Part shown: piece by piece, positions 35,250-37,485 of the stretch | Layout: every line of letters begins with the position of its first letter | Position numbering within the stretch: the first letter of the stretch is position 1 | NCBI RefSeq assembly: GCF_050920415.1 | Contig: NZ_CP169309.1 | DNA from: Escherichia coli | Lineage (GTDB): Bacteria; Pseudomonadota; Gammaproteobacteria; Enterobacterales; Enterobacteriaceae | Direction: 5' to 3' (one strand) | Length of the DNA stretch: 64,000 nt | Notes under the pieces: generated by a model | The model's input: the letters and a program-made list of their open reading frames with translations, nothing else | Told to the model about the DNA's origin: nothing | Databases searched by the model: none | Position numbers and translations under genes: made by a program

Positions 35250-35374
35250 CGCGCGCTCATGGTTGAATTAATGAAATTATGGTGTTAAATAGGCTAGCTT
35301 TTTAAGTCGTGAATATTTGTCAACGCCAAGATTATTGGCCGTTTTTCGCCATTTTTAATGTCCGCTATTGGTCA

Positions 35375-36171
35375 TTAATGTTGTCCGCTTGCCGCCATTT
35401 CATCATCACTGATTGGCGTGGCGTTTTTTGCCAGCACTCCCGCTTTGCGTTTTTCCTTTAACCGGTAGCTTTCTCCTTTGATGTTCAGTGTGGTTGAGTG
35501 GTGTAGCAGTCGATCCAGGATTGCCGTTGCCAGCACGTTATCGCCGAACATCTCTCCCCAGTCGGCGAACCCTTTATTTGACGTCAGCACGATGCTCGCT
35601 TTTTCATATCGACGGTTCAGCAACCGGAAGAACAGACTGGCTTCCTCGCGGGTCATCGGCAGATAGCCTATCTCATCCAGTATCAGTACCCGGGCATAAC
35701 CAAGCTGCTGTAGCTGTTTTTCCAGCCGGTTTTCCTGTTTTGCCTTCATGAGTGTGGCGATCAGCTTATCCAGTGGCATGAACAGCACCCGATGACCAGC
35801 GTCCGCCGCTTTTACCCCGAGAGCGACTGCAGGTGCGTTTTACCCACACCAGGCGGACCCAGCAGGATCACGTTCTCGCTACGCTCCACGAACGCCAGCC
35901 CGGCCAGCTCACGGACGACCTTACGATCGATACCTGGCTGGAAGCCGAAGTCGAACTGCTCCAGCGTTTTGACCCACGGGAAGCGGGCCTGTTTCAGCCG
36001 GGACTCCATACTGCGCTGATGCCTCCCGTTCCATTCCTGCTGCAACGCCATGCACAGGAACTCGCGGTAGTTCAGTTCTTTTTTGGCCGCCTGCTCCAGC
36101 AGGCTTTCAACGTGGTAGCCCAGATGTTCCATTTTAAGACGACCCAGCAGTGTCTCCAGTTCATGCATCAC
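35375..36171 (-). pseudogene. istB: IS21-family helper ATPase IstB, frameshifted after Walker A
   Basis: Fragment 35812..36171 ends ...[17 protein letters not shown], and fragment 35375..35788 continues the IstB C-terminal region in another frame. Confidence 0.7.
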
Positions 36172-36174
36172 AAC

Positions 36175-37338
36175 AGCTCCTCATAGGCACTCAACGGCCT
36201 GTGTTCCACCTGACTGACCTGCTGCCAGAGTGGGGCGTGATGCTCCGGCACGGTCTGCCAGCCGTATACAGCCGAACAGAGACGGTGCGATGCTACCTGT
36301 TGCTCATTACTGTAGATCCGCAGTTCATCATCCAGCGAGATCCGTATTGATACCGGCTGGCCACACAGGCTTTCCGGCACGCTGTAACGGTTCCCGCCAA
36401 CCTCGATATAGCCATCCCAGGAGACATGACGGATATCGAAGTAGCTGGTATCGAAGTCCGTACCTGGCAGCGCCTGCAGATGCACCTGTTCCTGCGTGAA
36501 GCGCTGTTCCGGTGTCTGCCTGAACTGGCGAAGTCCCGCCTGTCGGCAACGTCAGCCATCCACTGCTCCAGTAGCTGATTAACATGGGCGAAGCTGTCGA
36601 ACCGGCGGTACCGGACGAAGAAGTTTTCCTTGAGGTATTTCACCATCCGTTCCACCTTACCTTTGGTTCTGGCCCTTCGTGGACGGCAGGCCCGTGGCAG
36701 GAAGCCATAGTGATGGCCAGCAGCAGGAACCCGGAGTTGAACACCACCTTCCCGTTGTTATTTTTCAGCACTGCGGCTTTCTGGTTATCGACCAGCACGG
36801 TTTTCACGCTGCCGCCGAAGTAGCGAAAGGCGCGGACCAGTGACTCATAGGTATGTTCAGCATCCTGCTTTGGTGCCGCGAAGACATGGAAGCGACGTGA
36901 GAACCCCAGCGTATTAACCGCGAAGTTAACCCTGCATCGTTGCCCGGCAACCTCAGCCTCAACTTCTCCCCAGTCATGCTGTAGCTGGTAACCGGGCTGA
37001 GTTTCGAAGCGAACCGTTTTCTTCGATGGCCGCATCTTACGTTTGGGCTGGATGTAGTAACGCAACATGGAACGGCCACCGGTATAACCCATCGCTTTGA
37101 TTTCCGCCAGGATGACCTCGCCGTTCCAGACATTCTCAGCCAGACGCATGTCGATATAGTCCATGAACGGCTTGAGTTTGGCCATTTTGTGGCGTGTTTT
37201 TCTGGCCGGAGGTTCCGGGTATTTCAGGTACCGTCTGACAGTCCGCTCAGAGCAACCAACCTGAGTGGCAATATCAACAATATACGCACCTTGCTGGCGC
37301 ATTTGCTTTATCATGTAAAAGTCCTCTCTGCTCAGCAT
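36175..37338 (-). pseudogene. istA: IS21-family transposase IstA, frameshifted
   Basis: N-terminal 232-aa fragment (36640..37338, HTH region MIKQMRQQGAYIVDIATQVGCSERTVRRYL) followed by C-terminal pieces in other frames (36168..36655). Confidence 0.7.
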
Positions 37339-37485
37339 GAGTGTTCCCTTTGTGGTGTAGGAACCTTAAGGAAACAACATGTTGGGTGGAGCGGACAATC
37401 CAAATGGTGAATTACTGTCTTATATCATTGGCGCTGACATATTCAATTTTTCAACTCATTTTTTTCATAGGGAGGAGTAATTGAC

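What the first reader, a model, noticed from the sequence alone, without database searches (positions are those of the whole stretch)
35318..37438. Decayed IS21-family element inside the prophage, next to the candidate cos site
Terminal inverted repeats and a possible 4-bp TATT duplication delimit a 2.1-kb IS21-family element whose istA and istB are both frameshifted (istB right after the Walker A GPPGVGKT). It sits about 70 bp from a sequence resembling the P2/186 cohesive end and pushes the prophage to roughly 36 kb, which is larger than I recall for P2 or 186 (roughly 31-34 kb). Together these suggest the prophage may be packaging-impaired and domesticated, with the IS possibly altering expression of the adjacent zinc-ribbon/DUF4145 gene.
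Basis: partly seen in the sequence, partly recalled or inferred. Interest (0 to 1): 0.5.

Follow-up and report, generated by a model that had tools for sequence, protein, structure and literature searches.

The report
Ordinary IS21-family insertion in P2-like prophage
A common mobile element (ISEc62, IS21 family) recently jumped into a variable cargo region next to the packaging site of an otherwise intact P2-family prophage; its "decay" is three single-base gaps that look like sequencing errors, so the finding is ordinary.

Summary
A 2,122-bp ISEc62-type IS21-family element lies at 35318-37439, one base longer than reported. It has TG...CA inverted ends and a 4-bp TATT duplication. An independent assembly carries the same prophage without the IS and is identical over 14.4 kb of flanks. 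The element starts 68 bp from a P2/186-type cos core (35231-35249), and the att-to-att prophage is 35,921 bp.

"Decayed": the IS differs from its nearest copy, in a sister strain, by three 1-bp deletions and no substitutions.
- Two of the three deletions fall in Dam/Dcm motifs (P about 0.0025).
- Sister-strain copies show the same pattern: private 1-bp deletions, no substitutions.
- About 45 kb of the rest of the window shows 28 substitutions and at most 1 indel against relatives.
- This is the signature of unpolished long-read errors in repeats, not of decay.

"Domesticated / packaging-impaired": all 41 compared prophage genes are full length. The 59-bp cos-homology block matches phage Cartapus, whose DNA is encapsidated. 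Phages with 94-99% identical terminases share no sequence beyond about 8 bp past cos on this side. The length is only 1-2% above the largest well-delimited relatives.

Verdict: a known IS in a known hotspot of a known prophage type. Low interest.

The parts
35318..37439 (-). ISEc62-type IS21-family insertion sequence. It is 2,122 bp as given and 2,125 bp when three 1-bp gaps are filled. istA then istB read on the minus strand.
   Evidence: absent from the otherwise identical allele L019
37428..37439 (-). Terminal inverted repeat at the istA end (TGTCAGCGCCAA on the IS strand)
   Evidence: (I9)
35318..35329 (+). Terminal inverted repeat at the istB end (TGTCAACGCCAA); further internal end repeats lie at 35335-35402 and 37390-37411
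   Evidence: I9, I1, D2
35314..35317 (.). Target-site duplication TATT, left copy
37440..37443 (.). Target-site duplication TATT, right copy
36168..37338 (-). istA (transposase with HTH, rve/DDE and Mu-transposase C-terminal domains). In the sequence as given it is interrupted by 1-bp gaps near 36715 (GGCCGATC to GGCCATC, a Dam site) and 36535 (GGGAAC to GGGAC).
35375..36171 (-). istB (AAA+ helper ATPase). In the sequence as given it is interrupted by a 1-bp gap near 35831 (CCTGGCAG to CCTGCAG, a Dcm site), just after the Walker A motif GPPGVGKT.
35231..35249 (+). 19-nt cos cohesive-end core GGCGTGGCGGGGATACGAG
   Evidence: Aligned with the annotated cos of P2 and 186
35199..35257 (+). cos-homology block, equal to positions 1-59 of phage Cartapus, which are annotated as a putative cos site. 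Homology with Fels-2, RE-2010 and 4LV2017 ends at 35257-35258.
37486..38184 (+). Zinc-ribbon/DUF4145 cargo gene in the cos-to-portal hotspot, with a weak match to the defence protein PD-T7-4. The IS end lies 46 bp upstream of its ATG.
   Evidence: annotated as DUF4145 in relatives
38193..40993 (-). Portal (gpQ) and large terminase (gpP) genes, both intact
25105..25150 (+). attL: 46-bp copy of the ssrA 3' end
61026..61071 (+). attR: 46-bp repeat within the 3' end of ssrA (tmRNA gene 61027-61389, minus strand)
25105..61025 (.). Whole P2-family (Cartapus/Fels-2-like, Elveevirus-type) prophage, 35,921 bp including the IS

Best explanation
This is a genuine, very recent transposition of ISEc62, a common E. 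coli IS21-family element. It inserted into the variable cargo region between cos and the portal gene of an otherwise intact Cartapus/Fels-2-like P2-family prophage integrated at ssrA.

Shown: IstA/IstB-type transposition left the usual 4-bp duplication (TATT). The site is 68 bp past the cohesive-end core and 46 bp upstream of a DUF4145 cargo gene.

Inferred: the three single-base gaps that break istA and istB are most likely uncorrected long-read consensus errors in a multicopy repeat. Two sit in Dam/Dcm methylation motifs and one in a short homopolymer context. The element in the cell is therefore probably intact and active.

Inferred: the insertion lies outside the conserved cos block, so cos recognition is probably unaffected. 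Its real consequences are 2.1 kb of extra length (107% of the IS-free phage) and separation of the DUF4145 gene from whatever lay upstream of position -46.
For: Insertion is real:
- Exact IS-free allele with 0 differences in 14.4 kb of flanks and a single TATT.
- 4-bp duplications at two other copies.
- IstA and IstB pass NCBIfam IS21 cut-offs after repair (280 bits against a cut-off of 160; 297 bits against 200). Pfam finds HTH, rve and Mu-transposase C-terminal domains.

Frameshifts are probably artefacts:
- 0 substitutions and 3 single-base deletions against the nearest copy.
- 2 of 3 deletions in GATC/CCTGG, which cover 2.9% of the IS; P(at least 2 of 3) = 0.0025.
- Sister-genome copies L001 and L022 have 0 substitutions and only private 1-bp deletions, at GATC, GGG and A6.
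- The rest of the window shows 28 substitutions and at most 1 indel over about 45 kb against relatives. If the 4 indels were spread at random among the 32 changes, the chance that all 3 IS changes are indels is 4/4960 = 0.0008.
- The second IS in the window (IS2) also carries a frameshifting deletion.
- Dcm motifs and homopolymers dominate nanopore consensus errors in Enterobacteriaceae (PMC6591954).

Prophage is intact:
- 41 of 41 genes full length.

cos is outside the insertion:
- Homology with phages that have 94-99.5% identical terminases stops about 8 bp past the core.
- Cartapus, with the same cos and the same DUF4145 gene, gives encapsidated DNA.

The site is a known hotspot: the cos-proximal gpA-gpQ region of P2-like phages (PMC9122126).
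Against: The sequencing platform of the source genome is unknown, and no reads are available.

Outside the two IS copies the window is essentially indel-free. The artefact reading therefore needs the extra assumption that polishing failed only in repeats. That is common but not shown here.

The third deletion (GGGAAC to GGGAC) and the 2-bp deletion in IS2 are not in methylation motifs.

The functional extent of cos on the portal side was inferred from comparison of sequences, not from experiment. I could not read the P2/P4 cos deletion study (Ziermann & Calendar 1990).
Confidence: 0.72

Rival explanations
1. The three frameshifts are real. This copy is a non-autonomous ISEc62 with intact ends. 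It was either already defective and mobilised in trans by intact copies elsewhere in the genome, or it was inactivated after insertion.
For: The sequence as given carries the three gaps. Unique regions of the window look accurately assembled, so the assembly is not generally noisy. The IS ends and end repeats are intact, so trans-mobilisation is mechanistically possible.
Against: No substitutions accompany the three indels. Two of three are in methylation motifs. There are zero changes in 14.4 kb of flanks; for mutations spread evenly after insertion, P = (2.1/16.5)^3, about 0.002. Sister-genome copies show the same indel-only pattern at different positions. From general knowledge of the family, IS21 IstA acts preferentially in cis.
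Confidence: 0.22
2. One reading: the IS next to cos, together with the 36-kb length, makes the prophage unable to package. It is then a domesticated remnant, with the IS changing expression of the DUF4145 gene.
For: The prophage is 35,921 bp, 107.6% of Cartapus (33,368 bp). That is slightly above every well-delimited relative with a capsid protein at least 90% identical (33.0-35.6 kb). The IS separates the DUF4145 gene from all sequence upstream of -46. Flanking sequence around cos can influence cosmid transduction efficiency (PMC9594776).
Against: No phage gene is damaged. The cos block is conserved. The insertion lies in sequence that differs completely among phages with near-identical terminases. 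The excess over SopEPhi, SEN8 and the Kp48xx records is only 1-2%. Zero divergence from the IS-free allele means there has been no time for domestication. No outward promoter is predicted at the IS end and none in the native allele.
Confidence: 0.15
3. The IS at this position is an assembly artefact, with a repeat misplaced by the assembler.
For: No complete RefSeq E. coli genome has the IS at this site. Both IS-free places shown for the identical gpA protein lack it.
Against: The junctions are precise, at TG...CA ends, with a perfect 4-bp duplication of a sequence present once in the empty allele. A misjoin would not create that.
Confidence: 0.02

Closest known systems
ISEc62 (IS21 family), as annotated in RefSeq E. 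coli genomes, e.g. E24377A NC_009801 and pDEC15A-1
   Same: 98.3-99.8% nucleotide identity over the full length. Same istA-istB layout with overlapping stop and start, same TGTCA...TGACA ends, and 4-bp target duplications.
   Different: Three 1-bp gaps, probably sequencing errors. The insertion site was not seen in any of 5,426 complete genomes. The ISfinder reference entry itself was not compared.
Escherichia phage Cartapus (LF82 prophage 4, Elveevirus cartapus, OV696611, 33,368 bp)
   Same: Same cos block and the same DUF4145 gene next to cos, with 99.6% identity over 276 nt. The late region is 99.9% identical over 21.8 kb. Same ssrA-type att and gene order.
   Different: Cartapus has no IS. 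It carries a RES-domain gene where this prophage has GapS1, its early region is 87-94% identical, and it has different cargo between gpA and cos.
cos-proximal defence hotspot of P2-like phages (Rousset et al. 2022, PMC9122126)
   Same: The IS and the DUF4145 gene lie between gpA and gpQ next to cos. That is the region described as a hotspot of variable, often anti-phage, cargo.
   Different: That paper's main text does not mention DUF4145 or IS insertions. Anti-phage activity of this gene is not shown; there is only a weak PD-T7-4 match (E = 1.2e-6).
Long-read consensus errors at methylation motifs and homopolymers (Wick et al. 2019, PMC6591954)
   Same: Single-base errors concentrated in Dcm motifs and homopolymers in Enterobacteriaceae assemblies. 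Here the deletions are in CCTGG, GATC and a GGGAA context, and only in repeats.
   Different: That paper quantifies Dcm and homopolymer errors, not Dam. The platform used for this genome is unknown.

Membership tests
IS21 family insertion sequence | Two consecutive genes: istA (HTH plus DDE/rve transposase) followed by istB (AAA+ helper ATPase) | tested here: met
   After filling three 1-bp gaps: NCBIfam transpos_IS21 280 bits (cut-off 160) and IS21_help_AAA 297 bits (cut-off 200). Pfam rve, HTH and Mu-transpos_C_2. As given, both genes are frameshifted.
IS21 family insertion sequence | Terminal inverted repeats ending 5'-TG...CA-3', with additional repeated sequences near the ends | tested here: met
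   TGTCAACGCCAA / TTGGCGCTGACA (11 of 12). Internal repeats at 35335-35402 and an inverted pair at 35345-35366 / 37390-37411.
IS21 family insertion sequence | Short direct target duplication (4-8 bp), shown against an empty site | tested here: met
   TATT is duplicated. A single TATT is present in RM10740, JSMCR1, Cartapus and L019. Other copies have AGCA and GCTG.
ISEc62 (same element name) | Near-identity to the named element | tested here: met
   98.3-99.8% identity to copies that RefSeq/PGAP labels as the ISEc62 family.
Decayed (pseudogenised) IS | Inactivating lesions present in the sequence | tested here: met
   Three frameshifting 1-bp gaps
Decayed (pseudogenised) IS | Mutation spectrum of neutral decay: substitutions at least as frequent as indels, at a rate comparable with the flanks | tested here: not met
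   0 substitutions and 3 indels in the IS, against 28 and at most 1 elsewhere. 0 changes in 14.4 kb of flanks. 2 of 3 in methylation motifs. Same pattern in sister-genome copies.
Decayed (pseudogenised) IS | Lesions confirmed by independent reads | not testable with these tools
   No read data. The frameshifted 232-aa product is not on record in the protein collection.
P2-family (Peduoviridae) prophage with a cos site | 19-nt cohesive-end sequence homologous to P2/186, lying between gpA-side cargo and the portal gene | tested here: met
   Alignment with the annotated cos of P2, 186 and Cartapus
P2-family (Peduoviridae) prophage with a cos site | Complete set of P2-type regulatory, replication, head, lysis and tail genes; att repeats | tested here: met
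   41 of 41 genes full length. 46-bp att repeat at ssrA.
Defective / domesticated prophage | Loss or disruption of essential phage genes or of cos | tested here: not met
Defective / domesticated prophage | Genome too long for the capsid | tested here: inconclusive
   35,921 bp against 33.0-35.6 kb for well-delimited relatives with capsid at least 90% identical. No measured upper limit for this capsid was found.
Defective / domesticated prophage | No infectious or DNA-filled particles on induction | not testable with these tools
   Needs an experiment

The most novel reading that the evidence does not exclude
The three frameshifts are real, and the insertion 68 bp from cos plus 7% extra length stops packaging. 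The window would then capture the first step of 'grounding' a P2-family prophage. The prophage would keep its defence cargo (GapS1, a PD-T7-4-like DUF4145 gene) while a dead IS locks it in place.
Probability: 0.06. Interest if true: 0.25.

Novelty: already known. Interest (0 to 1): 0.08.

Why it matters
It matters mainly as a caution. Indel-only "pseudogenes" confined to multicopy elements in an otherwise clean assembly should not be read as decay. They should be checked against methylation motifs and sister copies before any evolutionary story is built on them.

Biologically, the locus adds one example of an IS landing in the cos-proximal cargo hotspot of P2-like prophages. It comes with an exact IS-free allele. 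That pair would be a convenient natural test of how much extra DNA, and what cos-flanking sequence, this capsid and terminase tolerate.

Tried and rejected
- Junction search: I looked for the same IS-prophage junction in 5,426 complete E. coli genomes and found none. The source genome is therefore not in that set, and its platform could not be learned.
- Frameshifted product: I looked up the 232-aa frameshifted IstA product by exact sequence, to find independent assemblies with the same lesion. It is not on record.
- Promoters: I tried to locate a promoter for the DUF4145 gene in both alleles, and an outward promoter at the IS end. The tool scan and my own relaxed scan gave nothing usable on the + strand. 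The expression claim stays open.
- cos literature: I tried to read the P2/P4 cos deletion analysis (Ziermann & Calendar 1990). It is not held. Papers citing it give only the 55-bp P2/P4 homology.
- Packaging limit: I searched the literature for a measured packaging limit for P2-type capsids and found none.
- Over-long relatives: phage records of 37-39 kb with near-identical capsids were rejected as size evidence. The one I inspected, NC_049342 (39.2 kb), contains chromosomal flank from smpB to ffh.
- Two nanopore papers did not address motif-linked consensus errors. PMC6591954 did.
- Assembly misjoin was considered and rejected because of the perfect target duplication.

Full report
**What is at the coordinates**

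The stretch 35318-37439 is an insertion sequence read on the minus strand.
- It matches copies that RefSeq labels "IS21-like element ISEc62 family transposase" and "IS21-like element helper ATPase IstB". These occur in 2,516 of 5,426 complete E. coli genomes. The best listed full-length copies are 98.3-99.8% identical.
- Intact copies are three bases longer than the window copy: the element is 2,125 bp intact and 2,122 bp here.
Further end repeats lie inside both ends.
- TATT flanks it on both sides (35314-35317 and 37440-37443).

**Is the insertion real?**

Yes. Many P2-like prophages in E. coli carry the same cos to DUF4145 region uninterrupted, with a single TATT (GTCGTGAATATTCAATTTTTC).

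The exact gpA protein of this prophage led to an independent assembly, L019 (GCA_002531355.1). Its prophage is identical to the window over 10,053 bp to the left and 4,366 bp to the right of the IS. The only difference is the IS plus 4 bp.

Two other copies of this IS have 4-bp duplications, AGCA and GCTG. No complete RefSeq E. coli genome has the IS at this site. The insertion is therefore strain-specific and very recent.

**Family membership**

With the three gaps filled, IstA (390 aa) scores 280 bits on NCBIfam transpos_IS21 (cut-off 160). IstB (264 aa) scores 297 bits on IS21_help_AAA (cut-off 200). Pfam finds HTH, rve and Mu-transposase C-terminal domains in IstA. All defining IS21-family features are met.

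**The "decay"**

The nearest copy is L001, in strain MFDS1022581. The chromosome of that strain is 99.9-100% identical to the window's chromosomal part. Against L001 the window IS has no substitutions and exactly three 1-bp deletions:
- GGCCGATC to GGCCATC, in istA;
- GGGAAC to GGGAC, in istA;
- CCTGGCAG to CCTGCAG, in istB, right after the Walker A motif.

Several observations point to consensus error rather than mutation.
- Two of the three deletions fall in Dam (GATC) or Dcm (CCWGG) motifs. These motifs cover 2.9% of the element, so P(at least 2 of 3) = 0.0025.
They differ only by their own 1-bp deletions. One is in GATC, one is in A6, and one is in the GGG run 3 bp from a window deletion.
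- That genome has many "frameshifted" genes in its repeated prophage regions.
- Across about 45 kb of unique sequence the window differs from close relatives by 28 substitutions and at most one indel. That indel lies in a gene marked frameshifted in the other genome.
- If the 4 indels were spread at random among the 32 changes, the chance that all three IS changes are indels is 4/4960 = 0.0008.
- With no change at all in 14.4 kb of flanks, three post-insertion mutations inside 2.1 kb are also unlikely, (2.1/16.5)^3 or about 0.002.
- The only other repeat in the window, an IS2 at 19028-20356, also carries a frameshifting deletion.
- Methylation motifs and homopolymers are the main sources of nanopore consensus error in Enterobacteriaceae (PMC6591954). 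From general knowledge, short-read polishing commonly fails in multicopy repeats.

I therefore rate the frameshifts as probably artefactual, at about 75%. The platform is unknown and no reads were available, so this is inference.

**The prophage**

The IS sits in a P2-family prophage bounded by a 46-bp perfect repeat of the ssrA 3' end (25105-25150 and 61026-61071). The prophage is 35,921 bp with the IS and 33,795 bp without it.

It is closest to phage Cartapus, which is LF82 prophage 4 (Elveevirus, 33,368 bp). The two are 99.9% identical over 21.8 kb of late genes and share the same cos block and DUF4145 gene.

All 41 genes compared with the WEC prophage are full length. Forty are at least 98.4% identical, and DinI is 84% identical. 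Nothing but the IS suggests degradation.

**cos**

GGCGTGGCGGGGATACGAG (35231-35249) aligns with the annotated cohesive ends of 186 and P2. Cartapus annotates the equivalent of 35199-35257 as its cos region.

Homology with Fels-2, RE-2010 and Klebsiella phage 4LV2017 runs through the gpA side and the core and stops at 35257-35258. The terminase subunits of RE-2010 and 4LV2017 are 94-99.5% identical to the window's.

The IS lies 60 bp beyond that break, in sequence that belongs with the DUF4145 cargo. The conserved recognition sequence therefore appears untouched. This is a comparative inference, and the experimental cos deletion study could not be read.

Cartapus, with the same cos, yields encapsidated DNA at low titre (PMC9928086).

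**Size**

Well-delimited relatives with capsid proteins at least 90% identical span 33.0-35.6 kb:
- Cartapus, 33.4 kb;
- RE-2010, 34.1 kb;
- SEN8, 35.2 kb;
- SopEPhi, 35.2 kb;
- the Kp48xx records, 35.6 kb.

One longer record I inspected, NC_049342 (39.2 kb), includes chromosomal flank. At 35.9 kb this prophage is 1-2% above the largest of these and 7.6% above Cartapus. Reduced packaging efficiency cannot be excluded, but it is not indicated.

**The neighbouring gene**

The region between gpA and gpQ next to cos is a described hotspot of variable, often anti-phage, cargo in P2-like phages (PMC9122126).

The 232-aa protein encoded at 37486-38184 has a DUF4145 domain (E = 7e-7). It also gives a weak match to the defence protein PD-T7-4 (E = 1.2e-6).

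The IS end lies 46 bp upstream of its start codon, with istA diverging from it. No sigma-70-type promoter is predicted on the + strand in either the empty or the occupied allele. [quoted passage not shown] Whether the IS changes its expression cannot be decided here.

**Verdict**

- "Decayed" is most likely a sequencing artefact.
- "Domesticated" is contradicted by an otherwise intact prophage that is identical to an IS-free allele.
- "Packaging-impaired" rests only on a 1-2% excess in length.

This is a known IS in a known hotspot of a known prophage type, and the interest is low.

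Noticed in passing
window 19028-20356: A 1,329-bp IS2 copy sits in a ypjA/AIDA-like autotransporter gene, with a 5-bp target duplication (19023-19027 and 20357-20361). It is absent from the sister strain MFDS1022581. It carries a 2-bp deletion (GGGGATGACGG to GGGGGACGG) in orfA relative to two reference copies. It is thus a second repeat in the window with a frameshifting indel.
   Followed up: partly
window 25283-26803 (minus strand): A GapS1-family anti-phage gene (NCBIfam 428 bits, cut-off 320) lies between attL and the integrase gene. 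Cartapus has a RES-domain gene at the same position, which suggests a second cargo hotspot at the int end of these prophages.
   Followed up: partly
window 1-25132 compared with NZ_CP169399.1 (L006, L016): The chromosomal flank is 99.9-100% identical to strain MFDS1022581. That strain carries an Stx2g lambdoid prophage beside the same autotransporter gene, where the window has the P2-like prophage. Its assembly has many 'frameshifted' genes in repeated prophage regions.
   Followed up: partly
window 50687-52480 and 52555-53127: A tail-fibre region with oppositely oriented fibre and assembly genes sits next to a Gin/Cin-type DNA invertase gene. The segment is the only part of the late region that does not align with Cartapus or WEC, as expected for an invertible host-range segment.
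   Followed up: no
window 34326-35057: A 243-aa cargo gene lies between DinI and cos, with no PADLOC or NCBIfam match. It is shared with Fels-2 (STM2726), RM10740 and L019. Its function is unknown.
   Followed up: partly
window 60424-60903 (minus strand): A 160-aa gene lies between ogr and attR, with weak matches to PDC-S48, SspE and the C-terminus of a DEDDh exonuclease. Its Cartapus homologue is annotated 'putative exonuclease', and a gene so annotated (LF82_783) is expressed 15-fold above background in LF82 lysogens (PMC9928086).
   Followed up: no
L017 (NC_049342.1) 1-4000 and 30600-39179: The public record 'Escherichia phage 500465-1' (39.2 kb) is a prophage prediction that includes chromosomal genes from smpB to ffh. 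It has an IS21-family (IS100kyp) element with fragmented ORFs inside the gpA replication gene. Its length should not be used as a phage genome size.
   Followed up: partly
L007 (NZ_CP114592.1) 29710-33269: The tape-measure and gpU genes of the WEC prophage are annotated as frameshifted. The window and Cartapus have them intact, and the differences are 1-2-bp indels. This is probably another case of assembly error in a public genome.
   Followed up: partly
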